Source of the DNA: Fimicolochytrium jonesii
Taxonomy: Eukaryota
Assembly: GCF_025526975.1 (NCBI RefSeq)
Contig: NW_026515680.1
Span: 434,001-498,000, forward strand
Length of the DNA: 64,000 nucleotides
Reading direction: 5' to 3'
This document shows, piece after piece, positions 35,423 to 61,752 of this stretch. A model generated the notes under the pieces. It made no database searches, was not told the DNA's origin, and was given only the letters and a program-made list of their open reading frames with translations. The translations under genes were made by a program, and so were the position numbers. Each line of letters opens with the position of its first letter. Position 1 is the stretch's first letter.

Positions 35423-35690
35423 TGTAACGTCAGAGGAAACGTAGACGATATTGGGCCCTTCTGAGAGGGCTGAGAGCAGTGTATTGTAGTGAAGAAAAAA
35501 GTAAGAAGCTCTTCGCAGCGGCCGCTCGACTGACAGCTTTATATATGGGTTGCCAGTGGGGCTTGCGTGGCTTCAGTGAGGCTTGGCGCCTTATGAAATG
35601 TATCACCAAGAGCTCGGGTGGCCAGCTCGGATCAAATAGAAGTAATGAGGTATAATATGAAATACAAGTGAAGATGAGATATCCCCGACA
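35423..35690 (-). repeat. 3' LTR of the outer Gypsy (268 bp)
   Basis: On the minus strand it starts TGTCGGGGATATC, ends ACGTTACA and contains TATATAAA. Its first ~140 bp match 51082-51230. Confidence 0.9.
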
Positions 35691-36003
35691 CCTCCCTCAG
35701 ATCCTGAGGAGGGCGCCAAATAAATAAGAGGTGAACTACGAGGGATATGTGAAGAAAGGGAGAGCTCATGTTCATTTTAAAGTGTTGCCGCACTTGTTCA
35801 TTTTATAGTGTTGATGCACTGTGTGATGTGTGTGTTTGAGGCAAAGGCGTCCCTAAGCTGACGTCGTGTGTGATGTGTGTATGTAAGGTCGGTTCTTGCG
35901 TCGCCGCGTGTGATGTGATGTAGTTTACATCGCTATTGTCAGCGGTGTGATTGATGGTGAGCGGTTCTTGCGGCGTCGCGCGTGTGATGTGATATGAGAT
36001 GCT

Positions 36004-36547
36004 CTATGCTGTTTGTCTCCGTATCCACAAAGATTGTGGATGAGCTTTTTGCCATCGTTTGTAGGCAGGCGTGTAGCAAAGTGCGGATTCGGGTTCCCAA
36101 GTAGGGTCAGGATAACCAAGCCATTTGACTAGAAGATTTTGTACGGCGCGTCGCTCGTCGATGATGTCTTCTACAACCCATTCAGGTTGTCCGCGTTCTT
36201 CGATTGGTGGAGGAGGTTGTGGAACTGCACGTTGCGGATATTGCTCTTCGCGATGTGGTCGTAAAATATCGACGTGAAAGACGGGCCAGATGCCGCTGAT
36301 CTTCAATGGTGATAAATCGAGTTCGTAGGTATCAGGATGTGCTCCCAGTGCGATGATTTTGAATGGTCCGATCCACGTAGCTGAGTATCGAAGTCCACTT
36401 CGTGCGTCTACTTCTAGGTTGATTCCTTGTCGGTTCAGATCGACGAGGTTGCCAATTTTGTATGCGATTGGCGTTCAACCTTTGTCGTGTTGACGTGCGA
36501 ATTGATCTTGCGATCTCTGAAGGTTTTCGCGTACGATACGGGCGATG
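36004..36547 (-). pseudogene. Outer Gypsy integrase C-terminus: GPF module and chromodomain
   Basis: WIGPFKII, WPVFHVDILRP and PEWVVEDIIDERR..LVKWLGYPDPTWEP. Continues the integrase at 46545+ once the inner element is removed (..GQEDIARIVRENL..). Confidence 0.88.
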
Positions 36548-36971
36548 TGTGAACGTGATCAGGTTGACGGCGTACGAGGAGATGGGGAGATTCAAGGGAA
36601 GATTAGTATTTGTGCGCGCGTGACCAGGCGTGATCAGTAGTAGGATAGAGACACACCCCCTTCCCCCCCCCCCCCCACCATAAAATGGACAACACTGGCG
36701 TAGATTGCCCGGGGAGCATCTTACCGGCTATAGACTAGACCATAAGTTTGTACCATAGGAGCTCAATTGACCCAACTGACTAGCGTACCTACGCCTAGCA
36801 GTCCAGGGTTGCCAATATACGGAGTACGCCCAAGCGTGTCTACTTGTGTGGTGAGAATGGGGATTTAGTTGGTCTCTACCTTTTACCTTGCACTCTCCAC
36901 TAGTAGATCATCTCCACCCGCGAACGACCCGATTTAGGACCTATCTCAGGGAATAATCGACCACTTTCACA
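36548..36971 (+). repeat. 5' LTR of the inner Gypsy (424 bp)
   Basis: TG..CA ends. The last 132 bp (36840-36971) are repeated at 46409-46540 with 3 mismatches. Confidence 0.88.
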
Positions 36972-36974
36972 TTT

Positions 36975-36992
36975 TGGGGGCTCGGCCGGGAA
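36975..36992 (+). promoter_or_regulatory. Primer-binding site complementary to the tRNA-Pro 3' end
   Basis: TGGGGGCTCGGCCGGGAA, 3 nt after the LTR, matches the classical tRNA-Pro PBS TGGGGGCTCGTCCGGGAT at 16 of 18 positions. Confidence 0.8.
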
Positions 36993-37267
36993 CAAGGAGA
37001 GACCACCTTCAAGGAAAAACAAGGAAGGAATTACAAGGAATCTACGAGGTTATTTCCAAGATCGGATTGGCAAACCACATCTGCCACCTTACAAGAAACC
37101 TACCCACGCGTCGCATTCTCTCTTTCGCTACGGAGAAGCGAAGCACCAATCTCCACCAGAGATTGAAGATCAGTCGATAGATCTTCACGAAGATCAAGAT
37201 AGGGAAACTGGCCGAAGACGCAGAATTTATCGCCAGTCCCCGCTCCGCAAGCCGCTCTTCAAGCCGC

Positions 37268-39106
37268 TTGTCAACCAAGCAAGCAATTGCGGCGAGCAGC
37301 GCGACAGCCAAACGAGCAGCCTACGAGCGATACCGAAGTTCTCTGCTCCTCAAGAGAGAACGCAAGACTACAGGCAAAGCCAAGTCCACGGATTCCCCGT
37401 CCAAGGAATCCCAGTCCAAGGAATCCCAGTCCAAGGAATCTTCCTCTGAGGAATCCTCATCCGAGAATTTGTCGTCAAAACAAGGCCCATCATCCGGTGC
37501 GAACCCGTCCCAAACAACCACAAGACCAAGCAGCTTCCCAAGCGGCTTCCCAAGTACTCCACCAGCCCCAGTATCAAGGCCACCTGCTCAGGATTCCCCC
37601 GTGGACCCTCCAGCGCAACCCCCGTCTATCCATCCATCCATCCATCCAGCCACTGCTGCTGTTGCCCCGGCGACCTCACAGCAACAAGCCCGAGCGCAGA
37701 CTCCCGACCAAGAACGGGAGCAAGAGGACACCTGGTTCACGCCGGTTGCGAGAAGGAATCCCGAAATGGCAGACGGAACCCCCGCAGGAGTCCCCCGAGC
37801 GGCCTCGGCGGCCACGGTACTTGAAGCGGCCGCAAGAGGATTTGAGCGAGCCCACTGGAAGTTGAAGAATGACATCTCGGCGAGATTCAAAGGCAAGCCG
37901 GGCGAGGATGCATATGCATTCCTGGAGAGGCTGAGACAAGAAGCTCAAAGGGCCGTAGACCAAAAGTACTTCGAAAACCTCGACGACATGGTGCCCAAGT
38001 TCGGCCCCCTCTTCAAGGATGGAGCGAAGAAATGGTGGAGCAGTCTGTCGTCGACCGACATTCCATTTGAGCAATTCAAGGAACAATTCATGGCTCAATA
38101 CAACAAGAAGATACCTCCTATCTATCGCTCGGCGAAAGTAGCCAGTATGAAGAAGCTCAAGAAGGAAATGTCGCGCAACTTCGCCATTCGGATGAAAGAA
38201 GCCAATTCCCGCCTCGGCACCACTCCCCTAGACCTAGGCCAGCTCAAGTATGCCTTGTACCAAGGTCACAAGCCTCGTGAGCAAGACAAGATCGAGGAAG
38301 TCAAGATAGGGGGCAAGGACTGGTACGACAAGGCGGTGACCTTTGACCACTTTGCCGAAGACGCGTACCAAAGAATCGACAAGAAACGGCTCCGAAGCCG
38401 GCGCCACGCTCGTAGCTCCTCCTTGTCCTCCTCGGACTTGGAGTCGAGCTCTAGTGGCTCCTCCTCTGGTTCTTCCTCGGAAGAAGAACGCAGCTGTCGT
38501 CGCCGGAACAAGAAGAACAACAGGAGGTTCCGGCCCCAGCGACGAGGATCCCCGTCGCCCATTCTGAAGACGGCCGTCCAAGTTGCCCTGCCCAGTCCCA
38601 TGCCCACCGCCGACTTCGAGAAGCTAGCCAAACAGGCGGCGGAGAACGAGATAACCAAGTTCAAAGAGGAACTCCGCTTGACCGGTAGCCGACGTGGACA
38701 CATGGGACGGGCCATACACTTGATGGAATTTGACGATGACCGGGATGATTACGCCGGTTACGAGGCGTACATGATGGACCAACAACAAGGTCCATACCCC
38801 CGCCAGCCATATCCACGCAACGACTACGGCCAGCAGAGGCAGAACGACCTCAGTACGCAAGTACAGGAAGTCGTCAAGAAAGCGGTTGCCAAAATTGCCG
38901 CGCAAATGGCCAAGGTGCAGATTCACAATGGCCAGTCCTCAGGAGGATTACCAAGGATCGGAGACCGAAAGTGTTACGCCTGCGGAGGCGACCACTTCAA
39001 GGACGACGTGGACCGCGAGACGGGGCAACCAGTATGCCCCAAGAAGCAAAGCCCAGAGGCCGGACATGCCAATGCTGAGAAGCGGCATTTTCCCCGCCAG
39101 GGCTAG
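37268..39106 (+). CDS. Gag of the inner Gypsy (start codon uncertain)
   Basis: Capsid-like FKGKPGEDAYAFLERL..FKDGAKKWW..FEQFKEQF and an atypical zinc knuckle CYACGGDHFKDDVDRETGQPVC. Confidence 0.8.
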   Translation: MSTKQAIAASSATAKRAAYERYRSSLLLKRERKTTGKAKSTDSPSKESQSKESQSKESSSEESSSENLSSKQGPSSGANPSQTTTRPSSFPSGFPSTPPAPVSRPPAQDSPVDPPAQPPSIHPSIHPATAAVAPATSQQQARAQTPDQEREQEDTWFTPVARRNPEMADGTPAGVPRAASAATVLEAAARGFERAHWKLKNDISARFKGKPGEDAYAFLERLRQEAQRAVDQKYFENLDDMVPKFGPLFKDGAKKWWSSLSSTDIPFEQFKEQFMAQYNKKIPPIYRSAKVASMKKLKKEMSRNFAIRMKEANSRLGTTPLDLGQLKYALYQGHKPREQDKIEEVKIGGKDWYDKAVTFDHFAEDAYQRIDKKRLRSRRHARSSSLSSSDLESSSSGSSSGSSSEEERSCRRRNKKNNRRFRPQRRGSPSPILKTAVQVALPSPMPTADFEKLAKQAAENEITKFKEELRLTGSRRGHMGRAIHLMEFDDDRDDYAGYEAYMMDQQQGPYPRQPYPRNDYGQQRQNDLSTQVQEVVKKAVAKIAAQMAKVQIHNGQSSGGLPRIGDRKCYACGGDHFKDDVDRETGQPVCPKKQSPEAGHANAEKRHFPRQG

Positions 39107-39145
39107 GAGCCAAGAGCCTCCTAGTCCTGGAACCGACGGCTCTTG
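39085..39145 (+). promoter_or_regulatory. Predicted -1 ribosomal frameshift signal (slippery site plus H-type pseudoknot)
   Basis: G CAT TTT, a 5-nt spacer, a 13-bp stem CCAGGGCTAGGAG/CTCCTAGTCCTGG (one G-U pair), and loop CAAGAGC pairing with downstream GCTCTTG. The -1 frame is open 39079-39912. Confidence 0.7.
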
Positions 39146-39420
39146 AGCAGAAAGACCACGGAGAATCGCTGCCTCAAGGCCAGGATGAAAGTCTGACCTT
39201 TCCTGCTCGGTCACCATCAGAACCGAGAAGAGGCAGTGATTCCGACTCCGAAAGCGACTGGGGAACGCGCAGAGAACTAACGACAGCTGACAAATCATTA
39301 CAACCTCAACACCTGTCCAAGTCGGGAGAAGAAAAACCCGACTCGGAGGACCCTGACCGTACACGCTACCCGTCTCCGCCACCCGAAAAAGAACTCTACT
39401 TGATCAACTTGGTTGACAAG

Positions 39421-39720
39421 AACGATTGGCAATTGCACCCGGACATCTTTCAGCAACTCGATGACGGACCCTGGGGAGGCCCACACGGCCACACTGTGGA
39501 CCTCTTCGCCACGAAGCAGAACGCTCAAGTTTCAAGGTACTGCTCGGTCGACCAGACGGACACCAATGCAATTGCTCACGACGCCTTCAAGATTTGCTGG
39601 GACGCTGAGAATGGCTGGGTCAATCCCCCTTGGCTCGCCATTCAACAAGTGCTAGACAAGGTCGTCACGGACGGAGCGACCATTACGCTGATTACCCCCG
39701 TATGGCAAGAAGCTCCATGC
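39421..39720 (+). pseudogene. DIRS/Dam-type DNA N6-adenine methyltransferase domain at the N-terminus of pol; C-terminal end cut by a frameshift/deletion
   Basis: DWQLHPDIFQQL..WGGP..VDLFATKQNAQVSRYCS..DAFKICW..GWVNPPWLAIQQVLDK..TLITPVWQEAP contains the DLFA SAM-binding motif and the NPPW catalytic motif in the spacing typical of DIRS MT domains. Confidence 0.85.
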
Positions 39721-42700
39721 ACTTCCGAGACCGGTTGCGCCAAGCGTGGACCTTCAAGACCGGCCCCCGCCATGTCAAGCGCCTGCCATTCCAAGACTGC
39801 TACGCAGGGACTCTGTCCTTCCTACGCATTCCGTTCCGGACAATCCTCTCCATCCGTCGGCGCCCACCAGCAACAGCGGACAAAAAAGGGGAGGAGGACG
39901 CCAAGGCGGTAGCAATTGACACGGCCATATCGGACGCACACAAGAAGGGTTCACTGGAAGAGATAATGCTTCTGGAGAAGACGGTCAAGCGACGGAAACG
40001 CAAGGCATTGAAGAGAGAATTCCTCGACAGCCTTGTCTGGAAACAAGTCGGAACGGACGAGTACGATCCCAAGGCGCAATTCTTCCTGAAAGACTTGACG
40101 ATAGTCACGGGAGAATTGCTGAGCAAGGCAAGACCGTACCTCAATGTCCGAGAAAAGTACGAGATCACCGCGCATCCTGGGGACGACTTACCCACCCAGG
40201 ACACTTGGATGGCTCCGGTGGCTGGAAATGAAGAAAGATTCCACGCCTGGAAAGAGGCCCGAGAGCTGTCCCTCACGGACAGCCGCATCGTCATTCCTCC
40301 CGATGAAGGAAAAGAGGACACCCTCCTTGATTCACTTCATGCCCACGTTGAAAAGGACACGACAAGTAGTCCGGACCTACGCAAGATGTACACAATTGCG
40401 CAGATCTACGAGAAGATTGAGGACACGCCTCTCAACGAGCTCGTTGTCGAGACTGCAGCTAGTCTCAACGGCATGGACGCTACATTCTACATGATGCTGA
40501 AGACCAAGCATGGCTCGAAGATCAAGGCCACCAAGTATGAGCGCAAGCTGTTGGGGATTGGCGAAGGCCGTTCAATAGGCCACATTGAATTGAGAGTCAA
40601 GCCTGGCGTCAATGGAAGGCACAGTTACAAGTTGAAGTTCAACATCATACCCAACTTGGGACGATTGGTGCTTATCGGCATCCCAGGGCTCAATGCAATG
40701 GGGGCAGTCATGGACATGGAGAAGAGATCATTCGCCTTCCGACTACCAACCGAGGAGCAAATGACGACGCCCACGAAGATAACGCTAGAAGACCATCCCC
40801 TTCACACCCACCTCCCGACGATCGCTCCGCTAGGGCCATCACGCTACAACGTAGTTATCAAGCAAGATCGAGTGGTGTTGAAACCAATGGCGGTGACGCA
40901 CGTACGGGTCGGCGGAACGAAGCAAGGAATCCCCGGAACGACGCACCTAGTCGAAGGCAGCAAGGCGTTAGGCGAGTCAGGCATATGGTGTGCGAACCAA
41001 CTTGGAAAGGCCGACGAGAACGGAGAATGGCTGTACCCATTCGCAAATCTCACGCCCCGGAAGCGCATCCTTTGGAAGAATCATGTCGTCGGAACAAACA
41101 CCGCCAGCGACCACGACTTACGGGTAGAACCGGTACCTGAGGCGTATCTGACGGAGGAGAAGCTGAGCGGATGGTTGACCGAAAACCTGAAGAATGACCT
41201 ACCGCCACCGCCGCCCGCATGGCCGAGCAGCCCAAAGGCCGGAGGCCAACGCCATTGGATGATGCCCGGATTGAGAAGCACCACCGGCTCAGCATTCTAC
41301 ACGCTGCAGAGCCAAGAGGAAGTGAAGGCCTGTGGAACGGATGAGCCGGAAGAGGGACCAGTGGAGGTGAAAGGGTTGGGGCAGGAGGAAATTGGCGAAT
41401 TGGCAAAGACATCGGCCATTCACAAGATGAAGGATTTGGACGCGGCCGCTACCCCTCTGGAGGACGCGCAATCCTACACGTCACCAGCCGCCCGCCAAGG
41501 ACGAGACGAAATAGGAGCAATGGCGCCTCGAGCACACCTGGCACCGGAAGAAGACAAAGCATTGCGGGACGTACTGCTAGCAAATGCGGAAGCCTTCGAC
41601 TCCCAAATTCCGGACAAGCCGAACATTCCGTACGAACACCACATGGAGATCATGCCGGGGACTCTTCCCATCGCCCACCCTCCACGCCGACAGGGCCAGC
41701 AGAAGGAGAAGGTTCTACGCGAGCACACCGACACGATGCTGAAGGACAACCTCATCTGACCCAGTAGAACACCATGGGCCGCTCCGGTGTTGCTAGTTAA
41801 AAAGCCGGGGGGTGGACTAAGGTTCGTCACTGACTACCGTGAACTCAACGCAAAGACGATACCCGACTCCTATCCGCTGCCTCGAGTCGACTCGACCATT
41901 GAATTCCTCACCGGCAAAAAGTGGTTCACAACCATGGACCTATGCTGGGGTTTCTGGCAGATACTGATCAAGGAAGAGCACAAGCACCTCACAGCCTTCT
42001 GTACACCCCATGGGCTGTTCGAGTACAACAAACTCCCGTTCGGACTCAAGAATTCTCCGCCTACCTTCCAACGCGTGATGGACGCGGTCCTGGCAGGACT
42101 GAAGTACAGCTTCTGCCTGGTCTACGTGGACGACATCATTGTGTTCTCCGACACGTTCGAGGAGCACATGACCCATGTCTCCCAAGTCCTCACCCGCATT
42201 CAAGAATCTGGACTACGAGTGAAGCTGGAGAAGTGCCATTTCGCGGTACACGCAATTCACTTCCTCGGCAAGAAGGTAGACGGCCAAGGGTTATCAGTAG
42301 ACAAAGCCAAAGTGACCAAGATCCTCGATGTCAAACCCCCAAAGGAAAAGCGTCTGTTGCAACGCCTCCTCGCAATGTCTGTTTACCACCATCAGCACAT
42401 TAAGAGGTACGGCCAAATTGCTCGACCACTGTACGACTTGCTCAAGAACGACGCAGTGTGGAAATGGGGACCAGAAGAGCAAAAGGCATTCGAGGAATTG
42501 CGACAGGGAATGGCGGACGCGGCAATCCTGGAATTCCCGGAAGAAGGATGCCCGCTGGTCCTCAAGTGCGACGCGAGCAAACTCGGACTTGGAGCCGCGC
42601 TCTACAAGGTTAAGGGCGGAAAGGAGATCCCTCTGGTCTTCATCTGCAAGTCGCTAACGGACGCAGAGAAGCAATACTCGCACACGGAGAGAAAGGGATT

Positions 42701-44705
42701 GGCAATTCACTGGGCCGTGACAAAGCTGGAGTACTACATCTGGGGAAAACCATTCACGGTGGAAACAGATCACTCTGCGCTGCTGGCACTGGCCAAGCAC
42801 GGAGACATGGCAGGAAAGTGGGCGCGATGGAGATACGCGCTCCAAGACTACCAGATGGAGATTCGGTACAAAGCCGGCAGCTCACGGTCCCACGCAGTAC
42901 CGGACTTCATATCGAGAGCCTTGTTGGAAGAGAAAAGGTCGATAGGAACCCAGACGGAGGCAATTGAAGAAGCGTCTGGAGAGAGGAAAGACGAGGTGTT
43001 CCTGATGGGGGGAGAAGCGGCCGCCGCGGAGAAGACTTCAGCAACACCAGGTGTCATTACCCTGGAAGGAGCGTTCGCCAAGGAGATTGAACGCAAGCAG
43101 AAGGAGGACTACCGGACAACATCCTGACAAAGCAACTCATGCTACGGACGATATCCGACCTACGCGTCCAGGACGGCAGACTCTATCAAATTCAAGAGTT
43201 TTGCCAACCCGGGTACCGACGCCAGATGTTCAAACAGATTGTCGTACCAGCCAACTTGCGAAGACGATGCCTGGAGCTCTGCCACGACGACCTGTTGGCA
43301 GGACATCTGGGCAGAGACAAAACGTACAGCAGACTCCAACAGTCCTTCTGGTGGCCGGAATGCGTGGCGGACATGATCAATCACCTTGCCAGTTGCGTCA
43401 AATGCAATCAGCACAAGCCGGGAATGCCGAAGTCTGCAAGAGGAGGAGAGATGGACCCAATCGTCATTGGAGACGTGTGGTGGCGGGTCGGAATGGACTT
43501 GCTTGGACCTTTGCCGGCTACAAGGAATACGAAGTTCAAATACGTACTCGTTGTCATCGACTACGCCAGCAAATTCAGCTTCGCAATTCCATTGAAGGAC
43601 GCAAAGGCGTACATGGTTGCCCGGGCTCTTATGGAGCACGTGTTCACCATCTTCGGGGTCCCCGGAGTGATAACGTCGGACCGTGGACAGCCCTTCACGA
43701 GCGAGGTTCCGAAGGCGCTCCTGAAACTACTGGGGGCCGCCCCAGCATTAGCATTCATGGGAGGCGATTGGGAAAGGAGCAATGCCGGTTGGGGACTTGC
43801 AAGCGGAGATTGTCAGGCACCTGCAGATTGCATGGGATTTGGCCAAGGAGAACGTCGCCAAAGCCCAAGCACGACAAAAGGCGTGGTACGACAAGAACTC
43901 CGAGAAGACAAGCGCCCAGCTAGGAGAACAAGTCTGGCTGGCAATTCCCCAGTTTCGTAAGTCGACCAACGTGGAAAATGTGACGGCCATCAAGAAGTTC
44001 GCTGCCAAATGGAGTGGACCACACCGGGTTGTAGGTGTCGGCGACAACGGCCTCACCTACAAGCTTATGGAACTCCTCTTGCCAATTGAAGTCATCTACC
44101 AGACAGCCCATATCCGGCGCATGCGACCATTCACCGCCAGGCGACCGCTAGACCCGACGGAACTAATTGAGATGGACGAAGAGGAAATTTTGACAGCTCA
44201 ATTGGCACAGGCAGCGACGGCTCGAGTCTTGAAGAAGACGCCATTCAGGCGTAGAGCGTACGGGACGTCCCACGAACTGAAGAAGCGAGCGCTCGACCCG
44301 GACACGGACTCGGAAGACTCTGATGGCAATGTCGGGGATGAATGGGAGGTCAAGAAGATCATCGACCACCGTCAGGACGACAATGGGAAGTGGGAATTCG
44401 AAGGCCACTGGAAAAACTGGAACACAGGGCACGACAGCTGGGTGGTACTCTCGGACTTCCGAGGGCAGGAGCTACTGGATACGTACTGTCGCGCAAACGG
44501 CATCACCGTTGGGGACGAATCACCTACGGTGGACGCCCAGACCGGCGATGACAGCATGCAATTACGCCGGTCCACGAGACAATCCACGCAGAAGTCTCCA
44601 AAAAGGGGAGGAGATAAGAGCGCGGATACTTCAGAGGCCGCAGAGCGGAGGCAGAACAAAGGAGGGAACAGAGGGTCAGCTGGTCGGCACAGGAGCAGGG
44701 AATGA
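39721..44705 (+). pseudogene. Inner Gypsy pol: protease, spacer, RT, RNase H, integrase (core partly deleted), GPY/F, chromodomain
   Basis: Protease LVVETAASLN..VLIGIPGL; RT PWAAPVLLVKK, FGLKNSP and YVDD; RNase H CDASKLGLGA; integrase HHCC, GMDLLGP and SDRG; WSGPHRV; chromodomain EWEVKKIIDHR..HWKNW..DSWV (44340-44500). Stop at 41757 and frame breaks near 43105 and 43740. Confidence 0.9.
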
Positions 44706-44946
44706 GAAAAAAAAAAAAGGGAAAAAAGCACGCAACCGCGGACCAACCGGCATCTTCCACGTTGGTGGAGTACCCAGCGGCCCAGCGGGAGCAAGACGTG
44801 CAGCAAGAGAATGCTCAGCAGGACAGAAGGGAGAGAACGCCCAGAACCCAAGGGAATTCCCCCTCTTCGGAAATGCATAAATAGCGGGCATCAGAAGCCG
44901 CTTCCCTCAACCCCCACCAACCCTCAACCGACCACCGTCCCCCAGC

Positions 44947-46423
44947 ATGCTCCTACGCTACCCCTTCCCCCCTCTCGACCCCAAACCGGTACTCCCAGAA
45001 CTCCGACCATCACGTCCCGAAGATCCTCCACCACCTCCTCAAGAAGATCCAGCGTCGCAGACCTGTCCAATGCGGTCTCGAAGCCGCCTATCCTGCGACC
45101 AACAACCAGGACCGAGAATCAGCGCACGAAATCGCCGGTTCCCGATACCCCTGTCCGCCCCGTGTCCCCCACGCACCAATCAAGGTCGACTCTCCCCCTC
45201 AGCTCGACAGACGGTTCAGAGAAGCCACCGGCTCCCGTACTCCCGTTCCAGTGAAGGCAACGGGGAACAAACGTCCGCCAATCCGCTTGCCCAGAATCAC
45301 CGTGCGAAATGCCGGCGACACCCCTGTCGACACCCGCAAGAAAAGGAAGGTGTTGGACACGCCCGAAGAACGACGAAGAGGCGAAGCAATCATTGGCCCC
45401 GCCACTCTCAGCGTCTCCGGCCTGGACCCGGAAGAGGACGAGTTCACGAGGGAGACCCTGATGAGGGACGTGGAATACCAGCCCGGAAATAAAGAGGAGT
45501 ACTACGGAGCAGAGAAGAACGGGGCCGTCTGCATATGCGAAAACCCGGACAATAGCGCTTCCATTTATGGTCGCGTTGTCCAATGCGAACTCGAAGACCT
45601 CTGATGTGGAAGCCAATTCTACCCCCCAGAATGCCTCAACAATCAGAGACTTCCCCACCCCCAGGAAGACGAAGAAGTTCTGCAGGACTACTACGCCCAG
45701 TACAACTTTGTTTGCCCACCTTGCCTAGAAGACCTCCCGGAGAATGCGGAGACCGACGGCAAGATCACTGCGACCAAGCACCCGAACGTTGGCAAGACGA
45801 GGGGACTGCGTCTGGCGCCCTACGACCATGAGAACCGCAAGTGGAAGACCGACTTCAAGATGAAGACCGGGGAGGGGGATATAGAGGAAGGCCGACCGTA
45901 CCGGGTCTCAGGGAGGGACATCGAAACCATCATGCTCCCGAGCCAATACAAGGAGTATACGGACGTCCCATCCACCATGTACACCCGTGTGCACGGCCTC
46001 TTCCCCCACCCGGTGCTGACCTCGCGCTCGAGAGCCCACAACCACATGCAAGACTGGGAAAAGGAATTGATCTTGAAGCAAGCCGTCTTTGTCGTCATTA
46101 CCAACGTGGAGCCGCACTACACTCAATGTGCCAAGGCCCTCCGCAAAGAGCATGGCATCCATGAGACTCGGGACGACCTAGAGGACCCAGAAGCACTGCT
46201 CCTCCAAGCCGCCTTCCCCCGCATCGACCAGCCCAACTACCTTATCTACGCAGGCCCCAACCTTTGGGAACTCGAGATCATCGTTGCGAGCTTTGGCCCT
46301 AAACCCAAAGACAAGCCGGAGGACAAGGAGCTGACGTTTGGCATGCCAAGAGTAGAGTCTGAATTGTGGTCAAGCCTGGCGTTGAAATGCTTGCCACCGG
46401 CGACCTTGCTACTTGTGTGGTGA
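44947..46423 (+). pseudogene. ORF3 of the inner Gypsy containing a PHD finger (45530-45724); one internal TGA; 3' end lost by deletion into the LTR
   Basis: Frame 2 is open from 44885 to 46423 apart from TGA at 45602. It reads VCICENPD..IYGRVVQCELEDL*CGSQFYPPECL..FVCPPC. Start codon is uncertain (ATG 44947 is in another frame). Confidence 0.7.
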
Positions 46424-46540
46424 GAATAGGGATTTAGTTGGTCTCTACCTTTTACCTTGCACTCTCCACAAGTAGATCATCTCCACCCGCGAACGACCCG
46501 ATTTAGGACCTATCTCAGGGAATAATCAACCACTTTCACA
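46409..46540 (+). repeat. Truncated 3' LTR of the inner Gypsy
   Basis: 129/132 identity to 36840-36971. Ends TTTCACA and is followed by the TSD GATG. Confidence 0.9.
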
Positions 46541-49363
46541 GATGTCTTCCTGCCCTTTCTTGAAGAGTTCGATTTCGTTTCGATCTACAGCTTGAAGTTT
46601 GAGTTCTTGTCCTTTGAGTGTTGGATTCCAACCCGGGAGGATTGGAGAGCGTCCGAGATCTACTTTGAATGGCGATAAACCTTCATATTCCTCCCTCGGA
46701 GCGGTATTATATGCGAATTCGATTAAAGGCAATAGTTTCTTCCAATTGCTTTTGTCGTAGTTGAGGTATTGCTTCCAAATCCTTTTCAGGGTTTGGATGG
46801 CTCGCTCAACTTTGCCGTCGGTTTGCTGATGACGAGCCGTAGCGAATTCGTGTTTTACACCGAGGAGAATGTCGATCGCGAGGAAGAAGTCGGGTTGAAG
46901 TGCGCGAGGTTCGCGATCCGTAACGAAGACCTTTGGCGTACCGACATGTTTCCAAACATGATCTAGAAAAACTTGGGCTAGTTCACGTCCAGTAATTGTC
47001 TTCTTGATTGGTGTCAGAATCACACGTCCGGAAAAGAAATCAATGCAGACAAGACCAGAGTTTGTTTCATCTACTTTGAAAATGTCGAATCCGATCGTGT
47101 GCCATCTTCAAAAAGGTATAGGAAGAGGTCGTATCGACGATGACCAGGTTTGAATTGTCGACAGGATTTGCAAGTTCCAACGTTTTTGATAACGTCGGAG
47201 CGTACGGTAGGCCAGTAATAGTCCGTAAGAATTCTCGCAAGAGTCTTCTTAACACCAAGATGTCCTCCGGTGGCAAGTTCGTCATGGAATTTCCGCAAGA
47301 TCTTTGGGCGAATGTCTTCAGGAACATATAAACGTCCTTCGTGTCGTACTAATCCATTTTCAAACTATAACGGAGTTCTTTCGAAGTTTTCTCGTGTTGA
47401 GGCTTTCGAGAAATTTCATTGAGATAATCCGAATATGGATCTTCGCGTAGCGCTTTTTTCCATTCTTCTTCTGAGCAGGTAGGTGAGTTTTGTGGATCGT
47501 CTGTCGTAGCATTGGAGGAAGGTTTGTTGACAAGCATGTTGCTGATCTGCGTATGCATGTCGAGGCGTCGTTGACAATCTACACACCGAGGCGCATAGAT
47601 TGGATTGCGGGAGAGCATGTCGGCGATATGATTCCATTGTCCAGGTAAATACGGGATGTCAAAATCATACTCTTGTAGCTTCTCTTCCCAATTGGCTTGT
47701 CTTCTGCTCAAATGGGGGTGCGTTTGGATGAATTCGAGTCCCTTGCGACCGCTAAAACATCGGAAGTAACAACCGATGAGATATGGTCAATTGGCGACCA
47801 ACATCTTGACAAGAGCTAATAGCTCCTGTTCGGGCGTAGGATATCGTGTTTCTGCGTCCTTCATCTTTCTAGAAAAGAAGACCACAGGCCGGAGCCGAGG
47901 TAACTTCTTCCATTGTCCGACGAGAGTAGGCAGATTCGTAGGGATCGTTTCATCGCCAGAAGGTTGTCCAATCCAGCCAGCGATAGCGTAGCCTGATGAG
48001 TTGGTGTAGACATAAATTGGCTTGGTTTTATTGATTGTTGCTAGCGTAGGCGCATTGATCAACGCTTCTTTCAACTTTTGAAATGCCTCTTGTTGCTCAG
48101 AACCCCATCGAAATTTCACTTTCGAAGATTGAATACTTGATAGGGGCAGAGCGATGTCCAAATAACCTTGTACAAAGTCGAGGAAGTAGTTTGTGAACCC
48201 GAGAAAGCTTTGAACTCCTTTTGTTGACTTTGGAGTAGCCCAATCCTTGATAGCTAGGATTTTTGAGGGCGCGATGCGAACACCATGTCTTCCGACAATA
48301 TGTCCACACCATTCAAGTTCTTCTTTAGCCCATACGCACTTTGAAGGCTTGATGAAAAGGGCGTGTTCCTCAAGTTTCTTCAGGATACAATCGACGTGTT
48401 CCCGATGTTCGGCTAAGGTCTTTGAGAAAATGAAAATGTCGTGCAAGTAGGTAGCGAGGAATTCGTCGTAATCTTTATGGAAGATCTTATTCATAAGACG
48501 TTGAAGCGCAGCAGGTGCGTTGGTAAGCCCGAACGGCATGACCAAATACTTGAAATGTCCAAAGCGAGTTTGTATTGCCGTTTTTTCCCGATCTTGTTTC
48601 CGTATAAGAAGACGATGGTATGCTTCTCGAATATCAATAAGCGTAAACCATTTACAATCTTGAATCCGATCCCTCATCTCACGAATATTGGGTAAAGGAG
48701 TGCGATCTTTCTTGATGACGGCGTTGAGACCTCGGTAGTCCCAACAGATGCGTAATCCGCCATCTTTCTTTTTCGCAAAGACAACACTAGCTCCCCAGGG
48801 ACTTGAGGAGTGTTGTACCCATCCTTTTTCGAGCATTGAGGTGATTTGTTTCTTGAGTTCAGCGAGTTCTTCTTTGTTCATGTGCCAAAGAGGATGCCAA
48901 ACAGGTTCAGCACCTTCAGTGAGTTCGATCTTGAAATTATCTTCTCTGCGATCAGGGGGTAGACCTTCCGGTTCCTTGAAGAGCGTATTGACGTATTTAT
49001 TGAGGATATCCTTGAGATGTCCTGGAGTTCCTTTAAGCTCTTGAGGAGTGTCCGGTATTTCGTTAAGAGTGAGGCGACAGACCGTGTCTTTTTCAAACTT
49101 GTTCCGTCGCCAAGCCTCATTGAATCGCTTAGAAGTCATTTCTATGACTTGAGGATTGCGAAGGGCATTGGCTTGAGCGAATCGAGATACATAATGAGGT
49201 GCGGCTTGTAGAGGACGAGTATCCACAGGTTTAATGATCCAAACAGGTTGAAGGGTCTTTTGTCATAGACCGGATCTCGTTGTACGTCGAAGTAAGGGTT
49301 GTTGTGTTTCGGGATGGTATTTGACGTCTTCCCAGTTTCTTGGAGTTCTTTCGCACTTGATGG

Positions 49364-49525
49364 TGTCAAGGGAATCGTCCCGATCGCTCGGAACGCCCCG
49401 GAGAGGTGGTACAGTCACAGAAAGAAGAGAAAAATGTTTGGGGAAGGTAGGAATCGATCCCACGCCACCTGGGTGAGAGCCAGGTGTCTTAACCACTAAG
49501 CCAAGATGTGTGTGTTCCCGTTACA
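49364..49525 (-). mobile_element. 162-bp solo LTR (TRIM-like) containing a tRNA-Glu(CTC)-derived Pol III cassette
   Basis: Minus strand TGTAAC..TTGACA with 5-bp TSD GATGG (49359-49363, 49526-49530). Removing it restores the host pol frame (PQSVTI/KCERTP). Confidence 0.85.
49430..49510 (-). ncRNA. tRNA-Glu(CTC)-like sequence with A box, B box and T5 terminator; canonical acceptor stem absent
   Basis: A box TGGCTTAGTGG (49503-49493), anticodon arm CCTGG-CTCTCAC-CCAGG (49484-49468), T arm GTGGG-ATCGATT-CCTAC, and TTTTT at 49434-49430. Confidence 0.75.
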
Positions 49526-50001
49526 GATGGTGACAGACTGCGGTGCGTTTGGTATAGGGCCGTAAGTGGTCCAGCAAAGGATAGGTAAGGTACTCATCGA
49601 GAATTGTTCAGCGTAATTAAAGAAAAGCCAGAAAGGCATTCCAATAATAGCGTCGTAAGCCAGATTATCGACTAGCCAGGGAAGTTGTCCAACAAAGAAA
49701 AGGGACTGAGATTTGAGATCCCATAGATCTAACTTTTCCGAAACGACCGTGTCGAGAATCATGTATGATTCTTTGTCGGCCAGCCATATCTGCTTCGGTT
49801 CGATACGTTTCTTGGGAAATTTGTGCTTCTCAACGAATGCCTTATCAAGGAATAACCCAGTTGCGCCGCTATCGAAAAGAACACAAGCAAACTTGTTTCC
49901 GATGCGACAATGAGAGACCCAGAGTACAGCAGACAGTGGTTCGAAGGCAGGTTTATCGGTAGGATCGTATGTTGTAGGCTGAGCAGAGCTACCGAGGGGC
50001 T

Positions 50002-51081
50002 CTATCGACCTTGGAAAAAACTCGAAGATTGATTTGTAGTAGTATTCGTAGTATTCGCAGAGTTGACGGCGTCACCCAGAATTTCCGTAATGCGTGACCC
50101 AGCATCAACCTGATGGGCTGAACCTTGTTGTTGATTAGGTTGGCGACTGCGCTGCGGAGTTTGAGCGCCACGACCGCGCTGTCGAAAACCACCGCGTCGG
50201 TTCTGGGTTTGCGAGCCTTGCGGTCAATTTTCGGGATTTGACCAGCATTCAACTCTCCAATGTCTCATTTTGTTACAAAGGGGACAAGGAGTCGTTGGAC
50301 GTTGACGAGGAACGTGAGTAGTTTGCCATTGTCCACGTCGACAAAAGGGCTGTTGATGTTGGTAGGGAACTTGACCTGTAGTGAGACGTCTCACTCCAGG
50401 GGGATAGTATGACGTACCAAGGGCATTAAGCCCAGAGGTCATATCATCTAAGTCTTGCTCAAATTCCGTAATTCGAGGATTGGTGTAAGGGGCAAATCGT
50501 CCGCCACGACCACCGCCTTGACTACCTCGACCGCGACTGGCTCCACGGACGCCATGAGCACTTGTTGCCGAGGCAATTGGACGAGGTGTATTGGCTTGGT
50601 TGCCGTCAGTGAACCCATGAGCCACATGAGCTCGACGGGCTGCAGTGATAGCTTGATCGAGAGTGATAGGGGTGTTGATGTTGGTAGTGCTTGAGACTTC
50701 GAAGTTCGTAACGGCTTCAGCGAGATAATGACCGATTACTGTATTCTTGAGAAGACCGGCCTTGAAGTATCGAATCTGATCGATAAGGGGAATGGTGCCT
50801 TGAGTGTTATCGAGACGATGAGCGGCTTCGAGCTCATTATTGGTGTCTTGAAACTCCTTGATATTTTTTTCGAGAGAGTCACCGAGCTTGAGGCCGGAGA
50901 GCTTGAGCTCAATAGTATTACGCAAGTTGCGAGGATAAAAGTGAGCAACAAGAGCCGTTTGAAAAGCTGTCCAACTCGCGGGGGCGCCGGTGGCGTAAGT
51001 CGTGTTGTACCACTCGAGAGCAGTACCCTTGAGGTAGGTAGTGAGCGTAGGAGCGTACTCTGCCATAGTAAAGGCTATGGC
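50002..51081 (-). pseudogene. Outer Gypsy gag, 5'-truncated, with a premature TGA at 50226-50224
   Basis: YLKGTALEWY..SWTAFQTALVAHFYP and zinc knuckle CPLCNKMRHWRVEC. The frame continues past the TGA to TAG at 50004-50002. Confidence 0.85.
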
Positions 51082-51235
51082 GTTGGCAGTGGGGCTTGCG
51101 GGGCTTCAGTGAGGCTTGGCGCCTTATGTAATGTATCACCGAGAGCTCGGGTGGCCAGCCCGGGTCTTGGATCAAATAGAAGTAAAGAGGTATGATATGA
51201 AATACAAGTGAAGATGAGATATCCCCGACACGCAG

Positions 51236-52796
51236 CCCGTTCCCTTTGAGAGCTCTGAAGGCGAGAGCACTATCTCCGGTCTTCATTGCGCACACTGCAC
51301 TCGAGAACTCGACTTGTGCTCCGTCCTCAGTGAGCTGGGCTACTGAGATGAGGTTCTTTTCAAGTTAGGGAACAAACCAGATGTTTCGAAGGGTGCCAGC
51401 ATGCTCCCTGTGTGTTGTGATCGTAATGAAGTCCATTCCAATGGCTAGAACTGACCGGTTGTCAGCTAGCTGGACCTGGATCTCATTGTCCAGCGTCATC
51501 CAGTTGTGCAGCCATTCATTGACATGTGTCATGTGACAGGAAGCTCCTGAATTGGTAATCCAGCGTTCCGGGCTGATTTCACTGCGTTTAGGAAGAGGAA
51601 CACGGTTCCTTGGCTAGCCTGCTGTGACTCAACTTGATTTGCATTGTGGGCTTGAGCTAGCTCTCATTTGAGCTTCTTGCACTTGTTCTTCCAATGCCTT
51701 TCAATGCCACATTGATAACACTTTCCCTTCTTCCTGGCGAACCTGGCTGAGACCCTGGCCTCCTGCTGGCGCCCACCATCCCCAATGAACGCTTTTCCAG
51801 TCAATCTGACTGGTTTGGAGTTCTCTTGCACCTAGCTTCTCTATTTAGAAGTCTGGCCATCAAGAACACCATGTCTAAGTCATAGTCATAAGACCGAATG
51901 GTTTGTTCCCAAACTCAAAAAGACCCGCATCTCAGTAGCCCAGCTGCCTGGGATTGGAGCACAAGTTGAGTGCTCAAGTGCAGAACGCACAATCAAGATC
52001 ATAGATGATGCTCTAGCCCATGAAGGCTCAAGCTATACCTGAGCACGCCTACTAAGCAGGAGTACTTCACAGCAGTTCCTTCCATATTTGGCATCAGAGA
52101 CTCAGTCATCTGAATGCTCAAGACGTTCAGAAGCTCACCAACTGCTACCAACACAATATCAGAGTCACTGGACTCCCTGAAGGTCACATCTGCAAAGTCT
52201 GCACGCGTTCCAAGGAGTCCAGAGCTCCCTTTCCAAAGAAACAAGCTACCTGAGCCACAGAAGTATTGGCATTCATCTACACTGACTTCTGTGGGCCCAT
52301 AAGGATGTTTACCTTTGGCGGCTGCACCTATTTTGCATTACTCATTGATAACAAGTGAAGAACCTTTGACGCATGGGAACAGTACAAGGCTCTTATACAG
52401 AAGCAGACTGGGATGCCAATCAAAGTCCTCAGATCTGACAAAGGACGCAAATACAAATCCACCCAGTTCACCATCGCCCTCAGAAGGGCTGGAATACAAC
52501 ACCAGCGCGCTGCTACCAACATTCCACAGCTGAATGGTGTAGCGGAAGGCATGAACCGCACTCTGACTGAGGTTGCACGGTGCCTACTCACCCAGGCTGG
52601 TCTTGGACATAAATATTGGGCAGACGCCCTCCTTGCACCCGGGCATATTCGAAAGACAACTTCAAGATACCATATGAAGCATTCTTTGGTCGCAAGCCCA
52701 CCCGTCTTCACCTCAGAGTGCTTGGATACATAGCCTATGCAGTGGTTCTCAAGAAAAGACGAGGAAAGGTTTGGCTACAGCTCCTCCAGCATAGCC
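51236..52796. mobile_element. Ty1/Copia fragments: minus-strand gag/protease (51236-~51895) joined to plus-strand GAG-pre-integrase/integrase (~51897-52796)
   Basis: Minus: VPNLKKNLISVAQL and WITNSGASCHMT. Plus: HIWHQRL.HLN, IKVLRSDKG and PQLNGVAEGMNRTL. Confidence 0.8.
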
Positions 52797-53710
52797 TGTT
52801 ATGGACGACGCGCCCATACCATAAGCTTACCTCATGACAGCACACTGAGAGCCGCCAATGTCAAACGCCAATGTCAATGTCAGTGTCAATGTCTGTGTCA
52901 ATGTCAGTGTCAATGTCAATGTCAATGCCACTCCCCCTCTCTCCTCTCATTTCGCCAATCCTCCCGCAATATCGCCACTCCTCCTCTCTCCTCTCATTTC
53001 GCCAATCCTCCCGCAATACTCGCCACTCCTCCTCTCTCCTTTCATTTTGCCAATCCCCCCACGGCTTCTCCACACCTCCCACTACTTCTCCATAACCAGC
53101 AGCTGTAGCAATGCCCTCTACGCTCGCCACGGCCACTCTAGGAGCATAGCTGGCGCCCCCCCCAGTCCTCTCTTGTTGTTGTTGTTGTTCTTTGATCTGC
53201 TGGGTTGTCTATCTATAAATAGCCGGCCTCTCTTCGTCCATTGCCTTCCTCCCCAGCAGATCAACACCAGTTCTTCTCATCTCTTGTTCTGGTCCTTGTC
53301 TCTTGTTTCGCCAATACAATCTCCTGTCGCCCATCGCTCTCGCCTTGTCTTCTCTACTTCGCTTCCGCCTCAGTCGTCGAGATCATAAGAGTTTGATCTG
53401 CTGCAACACTGCGAAGTTCAGAACCCGTCCAGCCCTGCATCCGACAAACCTTTTTCGCCATGTCCCAACCCGAATCCGTACCTTTCACCGCCGAGCAATG
53501 GAACGATATGTGCCAAGCCATCGCCGCCTTGCAAAGCCAAAACGCCAACTTGCAGGCCAACCTAGCGCAAGCCCAAGCCGACGCACAAGCTGCCCAGAGC
53601 ATCGCCGCCCAGGTTCAAGCCGATACGTACACCCGCCCCCAAGTCACCAACCCTGCTCTGGAGCCAAGAATCAGCTCGCCCGAGAAGTTTGATGGTACCC
53701 ACAGCAAACT
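52797..53710 (+). mobile_element. 5' LTR (52797-53390), self-priming-type PBS and truncated gag of a Tf1/sushi-like Gypsy
   Basis: LTR TGTTATG..CATAAGA with TATA at 53214. PBS TTGATCTGCTG (53393-53403) is complementary to CAGCAGATCAA (53254-53264). Gag MSQPE..EPRISSPEKFDGTHSKL starts at 53460. Confidence 0.8.
52857..53060. repeat. (TGTCAA/TGTCAG)n microsatellite and three 47-48-bp repeats within the LTR U3 (mirrored at 63050-63253)
   Basis: Visible directly. Repeat unit GCCACTCCTCCTCTCTCCTCTCATTTCGCCAATCCTCCCGCAATA. Confidence 0.9.
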
Positions 53711-56700: not shown

Positions 56701-56759
56701 ATCCGCGAATTAGGCTTAGTGACCTCTCAGATACACCTATGTCAGCTAAGGTTTCAATA
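53707..56759 (+). mobile_element. Degenerate Copia: inverted gag fragment, then plus-strand pre-integrase, RT, RNase H, PPT and 3' LTR (56145-56759); integrase core deleted
   Basis: RYKARLVAQGFSQEEG, QMDVSTAFLN, LYVDNL, RSTTGYLF, TALSSTEGEY and TKHIDFRYHFIRE. PPT GAGAGGGAG followed by LTR TATTGA..TCAATA. Confidence 0.9.
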
Positions 56760-57852
56760 TGGATTGCACCAAGTCGAACTGGATGGTTTTCGGTGGCTTT
56801 AAGATAGGAGAGAATGCGTTTGACAGCCTCCCAGTGTTCTTTGCCTGGGTTGGCTAAAAACTGGCTCACAGCTCCTACTGCTTGAGCTATGTCTGGTCTT
56901 GTACCAATTATCGCATAGGTCAGACGGCCTACAACGGCTCGGTAGAGCTTATCCTGCATCTCTGCAGTCTCTTCAGGCGTTTGAGGCACCATTTCTTTGG
57001 TGAGAGGGCTTCCTACGATGCTAGGTGTTGCCATTGCCTTGGAATTGATCATGCCATATGGTTCGAAGCATTTTCGATGTACCCAGTCTGGTTGAGCAGC
57101 AGGAGTTGTTTGGCTCGGTCTCTGGTGAAAAGTAGGCCCAGGAAATTGTGTAGGGCACCAAGATCCCGCATTGCCTATGCCTCCTGAAGTTCCTTGGCCC
57201 TGAAGTGGTCGAGGTCGAGTCTCTTGTTGCTCATATGTATCAGATACTCGACATAAGGGATCAGGATGAGTAGCCATCCCTCAAAGAGTCTGATATGAAT
57301 GCAATGGTGGGAATCAAATCTTGTGAAGCCTTTCTCAATGAGAGTGCTGTGGATTTCTATGTTCCATTCCCTTGGAGCTTGTTTACGACCATAGAGGGTC
57401 TTCTTGAGCTTGAGTATGAGATGCTCTTCTCCAGGCTTGATGTAGCCAGGTGGCTGCTTCATATAGAGCTCCTCACTGAGTGTCGGGTTTCAGGAATGTG
57501 GTGGATATGTCCATTTGGTCCTTTCGAGGTCTTGAACTGCTCCCCATGAGAGCAGTAGTCTGGTGGTGTTGAACTTGGCCACTGGGGCAAAAGTCCTGTT
57601 GTAGTGCACTCCCTCTTCTTGTGAGAACCCTTGGGCAACTAGTCAGGCCTTGTAACGTTTGATAATGCCATCAGCATTCATCTTGCTCTTGTAGACCCCC
57701 TTGCATCCAACAAGGTTGCGGTCTTTGGGCGCTGGGCAGAACTCCCAGGTCCCATTCTTGACAAGTGATTCATGTTCAGCGTCAGAATCACTCGGGTTCA
57801 ATGCTTGCTTGAAGGTTATGGGCTCTGTGTGCAGCACTTTGGTTGCGAGAGC
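56760..57852 (-). mobile_element. Degenerate Copia RT fragment (element A), interrupted at both ends by other Copia LTRs
   Basis: EPITFKQAL, KNGTWE, IKRYKA, KTLYGRKQAPREW and GTRPDIAQAVG, with frameshifts. Confidence 0.85.
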
Positions 57853-60800: not shown

Positions 60801-61752
60801 ATCTCCTTTGTTGGGCAGTACTGGAGGGTAACTGTCTTGTGTGCGACTTTTTCACGAATAAAGTGGTATCGGATGTCGATGTGCTTGGTTCGTGCATGGT
60901 GAACTGGGTTTGTGGCGAGTGCCATAGCTCCTTGGTTGTCTTCCCAGATGACTGTGGGGCCTTGGACGAGTCCTGTCTTGTCTTGGTGCGTGCTCAGTTC
61001 TCTGAGTAGAGATCTGAGCCACATGGCTTCTTTACAGGCGTCTGTAAGTGCCATGTATTCGCCTTCGGTGGAGGAGAGTGCTGTAGTGCGTTGTTTGCGT
61101 GATTTCCAGCTTACTGGACCGCCGAAGGTGAAGAGGTATCCTGTGGTCGATCTTCGAGTGTCTGGGCAGCCTCCCCAGGCTGAGTCTGACCATCTCACGA
61201 GTTTGGGGGTTCCTTGGATGGCTCCCAGTCGGAGTTGGTAGTGTTTGGTCGTCTTGAGATACGCCAGAATGCGTTTGGCAGCTTTCCAATGTCCTTTGCC
61301 TGGATTGGCTAAGAACTGGCTCACAGCTCCAACTGCTTGGGCTATGTCTGGTCTTGTACCGATCATTGCGTAGATCAGACTGCCTACAATGGCTCGATAG
61401 GGCTTGTTCTGCATCGCTGCAGTCTCTTCAGGCGTTTGAGGTGCCATTTCCTTGGTGAGAGGGCTCCCCACGACGCTGGGAGTTGATACAGGCTTGCAAT
61501 CGGTCATCCCGTATGTTTCAAGGCATTTTTCGATGTACCCAGTCTGGTTGAGCGTCAGGAGTCGTTTGGCTCGGTCTCGAGTGACTAGGAGACCCAGGAA
61601 GTAGTGCAGGCCACCTAGATCCCGCATTTCGTACGCCTTCTGAAGTTCCTCGGCCTTGAAGCTGTCAAGATCGAGTCTCTTGTTGCTCATAAGTATGAGG
61701 TCGTCCACATAGAGAATCAGGATGAGTAGCCAGCCCTCAAAGAACCTGATAT
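57290..61752. repeat. Tandem duplication with period 2,228 bp (57290-59524 = 59518-61752)
   Basis: Identical ORFs offset by 2228 (57643/59871, 58467/60695). LTR copies at 57853-58472 and 60081-60700. Confidence 0.92.

What the first reader, a model, noticed from the sequence alone, without database searches (positions are those of the whole stretch)
49364..49525. 162-bp solo LTR built around a tRNA-Glu-like Pol III transcription unit
Seen: a tiny insertion with TG..CA ends and a perfect 5-bp TSD (GATGG) splits the outer Gypsy pol. Inside are an A box, a perfect 5-bp anticodon stem with CTC, a T arm/B box (GGATCGATTCC) and a T5 terminator. The normal acceptor stem is missing, although GGGAA near the 5' end could pair with the 3' TTCCC. 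There is no poly-A tail or long TSD, so it moved by LTR integrase rather than as a SINE. Established: non-autonomous LTR elements with small-RNA genes in their LTRs exist (5S in Cassandra; tRNA-like in Helenus-type elements, from memory). Inference: this is a solo LTR of such a family in a chytrid-like genome, possibly producing a ~75-nt RNA.
Basis: partly seen in the sequence, partly recalled or inferred. Interest (0 to 1): 0.7.

Follow-up and report, generated by a model that had tools for sequence, protein, structure and literature searches.

The report
Chytrid solo LTR with tRNA promoter
A 162-base piece of jumping DNA carrying the remains of a glutamate tRNA gene has landed inside a dead retrotransposon of a likely chytrid fungus; it is likely the leftover end of a miniature retrotransposon of a kind described in 2024 (Helenus), so it would add a new host group, not a new mechanism.

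Summary
Window 49364-49525 has TGT...ACA ends with a 9/11 inverted repeat and a perfect GATGG duplication, and shifts the frame of a decayed Gypsy pol by exactly insert plus one duplication. It holds the window's only Rfam hit (tRNA, 31.7 bits): A box, intact anticodon arm, B box with T54A, then T5. The acceptor stem is gone (0 of 7 pairs), so it is no tRNA. Its 20-base anticodon arm matched only true tRNA-Glu(CTC) genes in metagenomes (10 of 10 matches). The host looks like a Spizellomycetales-type chytrid. All this fits a solo LTR of a Helenus-type mini-retrotransposon (Kojima 2024, PMC10886601), whose tables list no chytrid and whose consensus file lacks this Glu arm. Its ends resemble Gypsy and animal Helenus ends more than rust ones, hinting at a Gypsy helper. 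The defining test, a two-LTR copy with PBS and PPT, could not be run: no genome is held, no run was listed and no second copy was found. Verdict: probable new member of a known kind; transcription and helper are inferred. Interest 0.27.

The parts
49364..49525 (-). 162-bp inserted element, likely a solo LTR (TGTAAC...TTGACA in tRNA sense)
49359..49363 (.). 5-bp target-site duplication GATGG, left copy
49526..49530 (.). 5-bp target-site duplication GATGG, right copy
49515..49525 (-). 5' terminus; one arm of the 11-bp imperfect terminal inverted repeat (9/11); its GGGAA (49519-49515) is predicted to close the short RNA; shares its outer 7 bases with the end of the outer Gypsy LTR
49364..49374 (-). 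3' terminus; other arm of the terminal inverted repeat
49493..49503 (-). Pol III A box (TGGCTTAGTGG), 23 nt from the 5' end; predicted to fold with 49506-49487 into an 8-bp hairpin in place of the D arm
49468..49484 (-). intact tRNA-Glu(CTC) anticodon arm (5-bp stem, 7-nt loop; CTC at 49477-49475)
49447..49463 (-). T arm with B box GGATCGATTCC (49460-49450; A instead of T at tRNA position 54)
49441..49445 (-). TTCCC, predicted partner of the 5' GGGAA (replaces the lost acceptor stem)
49430..49434 (-). T5 run, candidate Pol III terminator (only T-run of 4 or more in the element)
49376..49395 (-). predicted 8-bp hairpin near the 3' end (U5-like part); not more stable than shuffles (z -0.7)
35423..51230 (-). 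context: decayed outer Gypsy (gag, protease, RT-RNaseH, integrase; 3' LTR 35423-35690; 5' LTR partly deleted; 5-bp duplication CTGCG) whose protease-RT linker holds the element

Best explanation
The 162-bp insert is likely the solo LTR of a Helenus-type miniature retrotransposon (TRIMp3), whose LTR carries A and B boxes taken from a tRNA-Glu(CTC) gene that would serve as an internal RNA polymerase III promoter. Shown: integrase-type ends, 5-bp duplication, frameshifting insertion in a Gypsy pol, tRNA-Glu arm, lost acceptor stem. Inferred mechanism: in a full two-LTR parent, Pol III starts about 4-11 bases inside the 5' LTR (U3 is only a few bases, since the promoter is internal); most transcripts stop at T5 as a roughly 90-nt non-aminoacylatable RNA, some read through U5, PBS, a short gene-less middle and PPT and stop at T5 of the 3' LTR, giving a terminally redundant RNA; a helper retrotransposon's Gag, RT and integrase package, copy and insert it with a 5-bp duplication; recombination between the two LTRs then left this single LTR. 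The helper is more likely Gypsy than Copia (about 60:40, weak).
For: Ends, duplication and 167-base frame offset. Ten of 15 tested pol homologues aligned on both sides; their implied linker across the site has median -4.5 residues (expected +2 if the 162 bp is foreign, +58 if it were pol; 1 of 10 near +58). tRNA hit above gathering score, the only one in 64 kb. Anticodon arm found only in real tRNA-Glu(CTC) genes, 10 of 10 matches in 9 loci; positions 8-65 are 42/58 to 48/59 identical to three of them. A box fits the Helenus pattern TRGCY...YGG. Length 162 lies within Helenus LTR lengths (104-323 in Table S1), fungal Helenus make 5-bp duplications, and solo LTRs are common. A T-run right after the B box is seen by eye in many Helenus LTRs. 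The neighbouring outer Gypsy also makes 5-bp duplications and its LTR ends in the same 7 bases, CGTTACA; 'tgtaacg' occurs 22 times in the Helenus file, first in part 5, where the animal (Gypsy-driven) families begin.
Against: Only one copy is known: none elsewhere in the window, none among earlier scan notes by sequence or place, none in metagenome, viral or prokaryote contigs by exact patterns. PBS, PPT and the non-coding middle are therefore untested. The B box departs from the GGTTC that Kojima calls conserved (though 'ggatcga' occurs 16 times in his file, some in B boxes). The predicted closing stem ends 6 nt before T5, and in yeast a hairpin that close strengthens weak terminators (PMC9278858, passages), which makes the needed read-through less easy. 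The shared 7-base end lies at the opposite end relative to the tRNA strand in the outer Gypsy, and TGTNR ends are common to Gypsy and Ginger, so the helper hint is weak; no Copia LTR was found in the window to compare. The linker test is coarse (range -38 to +57).
Confidence: 0.72

Rival explanations
1. Solo LTR of an autonomous (or large non-autonomous) LTR retrotransposon whose LTR happens to carry a tRNA cassette; the element would be transcribed by Pol II and the A/B boxes would act as TFIIIC sites or be passengers.
For: A solo LTR does not show what lay between the LTRs. Ends match those of the local Gypsy in kind. Kojima notes that not a few Repbase LTRs hold tRNA-like parts and only some could be classed as TRIMs.
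Against: The element matches neither Gypsy LTR in the window; only about 15 bases lie upstream of the tRNA part, leaving no room for a U3 Pol II promoter in that orientation; 162 bp is typical of Helenus LTRs.
Confidence: 0.1
2. One-off composite: an ordinary short LTR into which a tRNA-Glu SINE head or tRNA fragment inserted at this locus only.
For: Single copy known; Kojima proposes SINE-into-LTR insertion as the origin of Helenus.
Against: No internal duplication longer than 4 bases flanks the tRNA part and there is no A-tail; both acceptor strands are replaced while the promoter boxes are kept, which suggests a longer history as a unit.
Confidence: 0.07
3. Non-autonomous DNA transposon (MITE) of the Ginger/TDD type, cut and pasted by a Gypsy-like integrase, carrying a tRNA cassette.
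For: 11-bp imperfect inverted ends; Ginger ends follow TGTNR and TDD-4/5 make 5-bp duplications (PMC2836005, passages). An earlier scan note reports a tRNA-cored family with one long-inverted-end copy (e1-9844839, unchecked).
Against: Described Ginger inverted repeats are about 40-270 and 50-180 bp and most make 4-bp duplications; here 11 bp with mismatches at positions 4 and 6, as in LTRs. No Ginger transposase seen among 37 ORFs scanned.
Confidence: 0.07
4. A tRNA-derived SINE, tRNA retrocopy or a working tRNA-Glu gene.
For: Rfam tRNA hit above threshold; intact anticodon and T arms.
Against: 0 of 7 acceptor pairs, broken D stem, T54A; ARAGORN finds nothing; score 31.7 against 64-78 bits for true tRNA-Glu genes; TGT..ACA ends, 5-bp duplication, no tail.
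Confidence: 0.03

Closest known systems
[quoted passage not shown]
   Same: Short TG..CA unit with A and B boxes, non-functional tRNA, T-run after the B box, 5-bp duplication as in fungal families, solo-LTR form, length inside the 104-323 bp range.
   Different: Host phylum (chytrid) not in Table 1 or the supplement (0 hits for chytrid, spizellomyc); Glu(CTC) arm not in the consensus file (0 hits for ctctcaccc; line breaks can hide hits); cassette near the 5' end with about 65 bases after T5, where most rust LTRs read have it near the 3' end (Helenus-1_MLe is a 5'-end precedent); end TGTAACG like animal families, not TGTTG/TGTTA of most rust families; two-LTR form untested.
Animal Helenus (bivalve, wasp, fish; Gypsy-mobilised), e.g. 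Helenus-1_BaPl, same paper
   Same: First 12 bases on the tRNA-sense strand are identical to Helenus-1_BaPl, which also has the A54 B box and T5.
   Different: Animal families make 4-bp duplications; no similarity seen by eye in between; the 12-base match is within what common LTR ends could give by chance; no alignment was run.
Cassandra and Ajax (5S rRNA-bearing TRIMs), as described in PMC10886601
   Same: Pol III internal promoter inside the LTR of a gene-less element; 5-bp duplication (Ajax).
   Different: 5S-type promoter rather than tRNA A/B boxes; Cassandra transcripts overlap by only 18 bases, whereas here the redundancy would be about 90 bases and need terminator read-through.
Ginger2/TDD DNA transposons, Bao et al. 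2010, PMC2836005 (12 passages read)
   Same: TGTNR ends; 5-bp duplications in TDD-4/5.
   Different: Long inverted repeats (about 50-180 bp), mostly 4-bp duplications; no tRNA cassette in the passages read.

Membership tests
Helenus / TRIMp3 | tRNA-derived sequence with box A and box B inside the LTR | tested here: met
   B box has A at position 54
Helenus / TRIMp3 | LTR-type termini TG...CA with short inverted repeat | tested here: met
Helenus / TRIMp3 | 5-bp target-site duplication (fungal families) | tested here: met
   GATGG both sides; frame offset 167
Helenus / TRIMp3 | tRNA part not a functional tRNA | tested here: met
   0 of 7 acceptor pairs; no ARAGORN call
Helenus / TRIMp3 | two LTRs around a short non-coding spacer with PBS and PPT | not testable with these tools
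   no genome held; no run listed
Helenus / TRIMp3 | dispersed multi-copy family | tested here: inconclusive
   one copy in 64 kb; none in other collections, which need not hold this organism
Helenus / TRIMp3 | Pol III transcription from the LTR | not testable with these tools
   no reads available; also untested for Helenus itself
Fungal Helenus (rust/agaric lineage) | Copia-type PBS, mobilised by Copia | not testable with these tools
   no internal portion; termini lean to Gypsy
tRNA-derived SINE (SINE2) | A-rich or simple-repeat tail and variable longer duplication, no TG..CA ends | tested here: not met
   defining features recalled from general knowledge
Ginger/TDD non-autonomous DNA transposon | terminal inverted repeats of about 40-270 bp | tested here: not met
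   11 bp, 9 matching
tRNA-Glu gene | 7-bp acceptor stem and full cloverleaf | tested here: not met

The most novel reading that the evidence does not exclude
An independently born, Gypsy-driven Pol III mini-retrotransposon of chytrids: it captured a tRNA-Glu(CTC) gene recently enough to keep the anticodon arm letter for letter, shrank U3 to a few bases, and rebuilt the cloverleaf (8-bp hairpin in place of the D arm, LTR-end GGGAA closing the fold) into a roughly 90-nt RNA whose structure tunes termination versus read-through at T5. This would break the published split 'fungal Helenus use Copia, animal Helenus use Gypsy' and give a small model for how tRNA-type TRIMs get past their own terminator.
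Probability: 0.2. Interest if true: 0.5.

Novelty: new member of a known kind. Interest (0 to 1): 0.27.

Why it matters
If confirmed it extends tRNA-promoter mini-retrotransposons to Chytridiomycota and to a new source tRNA (Glu-CTC), which supports repeated independent origins. It also warns that such LTRs pass the Rfam tRNA threshold and can inflate tRNA counts in chytrid genomes. A Gypsy helper in a fungus would correct a published generalisation. It does not reveal a new mechanism.

Tried and rejected
No own genome is held, so the genome-wide BLAST was impossible. The sequencing-run search listed none: no RNA holder listed, no evidence either way; read mapping was not run. Earlier scan notes: nothing by sequence, by genome, by relatives or by the chytrid word set. 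Exact-pattern scans: 17-base arm in viral contigs gave 5 loci, 0 of 5 tRNAs or element copies; structured LTR+A+B pattern and the A-box 20-mer gave 0 in viral contigs; the 21-base 3' hairpin gave 2 prokaryote loci with no similarity beyond the motif, taken as chance. TG..CA plus 5-bp repeat alone rejected as evidence. The TGGT two bases beyond the + strand end looks like a PBS start but is the duplication plus pol coding sequence. The CRISPR-DR16 hit nearby (E 6.4) is chance. The bacterial promoter/terminator scan found nothing and is not relevant to a eukaryote. The stem probabilities used wrong indices and were discarded; one search has the corrected ones. In the linker test 15 of the 120 listed homologues were used (highest identity or chytrid-named) and 5 of the 15 were dropped for spurious upstream alignments (score 51 or less). 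No alignment to Helenus consensus sequences was computed; comparisons to them are by eye and by term counts.

Full report
Observation. The window shows GATGG at 49359-49363, a 162-bp segment 49364-49525 with TGT and ACA ends, and GATGG again at 49526-49530. TG..CA with a 5-bp repeat is common by chance (111 segments of 100-400 bp in the window, 61-95 per shuffle in 10 shuffles), so I looked for independent signs. Requiring TGT..ACA leaves 6 (shuffles 2-7); adding an 11-base terminal inverted repeat with at least 9 matches leaves only this one (1 in all 10 shuffles), a post-hoc threshold. The segment is 53% GC against 45-46% in the flanks. It lies between the protease ORF (49499-50071) and the RT ORF (47790-49262) of a minus-strand Gypsy. 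The two frames agree only if 167 bases (insert plus one duplication) are discounted; 162, 166 and 168 do not fit, and one further stop lies in the linker. With 15 of 120 listed homologues, 7 gave tblastn hits on both sides, in different frames; 10 aligned usefully on both sides and implied a linker of median -4.5 residues (range -38 to +57), against +2 expected for a foreign insert and +58 for coding sequence; 5 were dropped for spurious upstream alignments. The insertion is real.

The cassette. Rfam gives one gathering-level hit in all 64 kb: tRNA, 49502-49439, 31.7 bits against a threshold of 29. ARAGORN finds no tRNA. In tRNA numbering positions 8-65 are kept: A box at element base 23, anticodon arm with CTC, 4-base variable loop, T arm with A at position 54, then T5 at bases 92-96. 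The acceptor stem has 0 of 7 pairs and the D stem has a C-A mismatch. A 20-base stretch over the anticodon arm, scanned in metagenome contigs, gave 10 matches in 9 loci and all 10 are complete tRNA-Glu(CTC) genes; the core is 42/58, 43/58 and 48/59 identical to three of them. A shorter 17-base pattern gave 5 viral loci, none a tRNA. So the source is a tRNA-Glu(CTC) gene or a SINE made from one; the host's own tRNA genes could not be compared. Folding bases 7-96 gives three hairpins closed by GGGAA/TTCCC (z -2.9, 2 of 200 shuffles as stable); the A-box region is predicted to form an 8-bp hairpin instead of a D arm. The same GGGAA is part of the terminal inverted repeat, so its pairing may be incidental; without more copies covariation cannot be tested.

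Host and setting. The PhyH-family gene at 4157-5368 has its best named relatives in Powellomyces (57%), Spizellomyces (55%), Geranomyces and Thoreauomyces (47-50%); the Gypsy RT's closest named relatives by identity are from Powellomyces (45-50%); Hydin and Cep120 genes indicate a flagellated organism. The host is therefore likely a chytrid near Spizellomycetales; this rests on one host gene searched. The outer Gypsy spans 35423-51230 with a CTGCG duplication, LTR ends TGTCGG and CGTTACA, and 7 substitutions over the 156 aligned columns its LTRs still share; it sits in Copia sequence and is itself split by a second Gypsy at 36548-46540. The small element is most simply younger than the outer Gypsy (inference).

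Mechanism. Shown: ends, duplication, cassette, loss of tRNA structure. Inferred, from established Pol III type-2 promoter biology (recalled): start about 12-19 bases before the A box, i.e. at element bases 4-11, giving an 86-93 nt RNA to T5. In a two-LTR parent, read-through of the first T5 and termination at the second would give a terminally redundant RNA that a helper's proteins copy and insert; LTR-LTR recombination leaves a solo LTR with one 5-bp duplication. In budding yeast T5 is weaker than T6, but a hairpin within 7 bases strengthened T4 and T12 terminators (PMC9278858, 12 of 50 passages read); here the predicted stem ends 6 bases before T5, so read-through may be rare. T-runs after the B box are seen by eye in many Helenus LTRs, so the puzzle is family-wide; the word terminator appears once in Kojima's main text, for Cassandra.

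Comparison. Kojima 2024 (PMC10886601; read as listed under Closest known systems) defines Helenus as TRIMs with tRNA-like LTRs, found in rusts, three agarics, six animal phyla and Selaginella; fungal ones make 5-bp duplications, often survive as solo LTRs and appear Copia-driven, animal ones make 4-bp duplications and appear Gypsy-driven. Four testable features are met; two-LTR structure, copy number, helper and transcription are open. Differences: chytrid host (0 hits for chytrid in main text and supplement), Glu arm (0 hits for ctctcaccc), 5'-placed cassette, and TGTAACG end, which in the supplement first appears in part 5 with the animal families (22 hits) and equals the outer Gypsy's other end. 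Helenus-1_BaPl shares the first 12 bases, the A54 B box and T5; with three LTRs there already starting tgtaacggg this is weak and I do not claim common descent. Supplement parts 2-4 and 6-8 were only term-searched.

Novelty. Searches for a chytrid case found nothing relevant: Helenus+tRNA+LTR retrotransposon 4 papers, 3 listed; chytrid+TRIM+tRNA-derived+LTR 0; TRIMp3 6, only Kojima's relevant; Spizellomyces+transposable elements+LTR retrotransposons+SINE 1, unrelated by listing; early diverging fungi+terminal-repeat retrotransposons in miniature 0; Ginger+Chytridiomycota set 1, unrelated by listing. Subscription papers and Repbase were not searchable. Earlier scan notes (unchecked AI notes) report at least 8 Helenus-type solo LTRs in other genomes, two in early-diverging fungi, so the kind recurs and each new host adds little.

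Verdict. Real element; likely Helenus-type solo LTR (0.72); new member of a known kind; interest 0.27. The boldest open reading, an independent Gypsy-driven chytrid lineage with a rebuilt tRNA fold, has probability 0.2 and would deserve 0.5.

Noticed in passing
window 36548-46540: Second Gypsy (+ strand; gag, RT, integrase, chromodomain; PBS that looks like tRNA-Pro, label by comparison with Kojima Fig. S2) inserted in the outer Gypsy's integrase with a 4-bp duplication GATG. Its two LTRs share only their last 132 bp (129 identical); the first 292 bp of the left end have no match on the right, where extra ORFs of no Pfam family (44706-46423) lie after the integrase.
   Followed up: partly
window 35423-51230: Outer Gypsy with 268-bp 3' LTR; its 5' LTR is cut after about 155 bp and joined straight to gag, so the PBS is lost. 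Three levels of nesting: Copia > Gypsy > Gypsy and the 162-bp element.
   Followed up: partly
window 36544-36547, 46541-46544, 49359-49363: Both insertions into the outer Gypsy duplicated a site beginning GATG (GATG and GATGG); two cases, may be chance.
   Followed up: no
window 51449-64000: Cluster of decayed Copia RT copies in direct and inverted repeats (for example 52111-53388 against 63999-62722, 99% identical; 56760-60080 against 58987-62328, 94%), without recognisable LTRs; could include assembly duplication.
   Followed up: no
window 20615-29110: Hydin-like gene read as two long stop-to-stop frames (1903 and 927 aa) separated by a single in-frame stop near 26327; may be an intron or a true stop.
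   Followed up: no
L006-L014: Metagenome contigs with very dense arrays of 6-14 eukaryote-type tRNA genes of many isotypes on both strands within 0.8-1.5 kb; origin not examined.
   Followed up: no
window 33909-34316: 145-bp direct repeat (88%) in a GC-rich ORF-like stretch that is interrupted by an 88-bp Copia fragment at 34070-34157.
   Followed up: no
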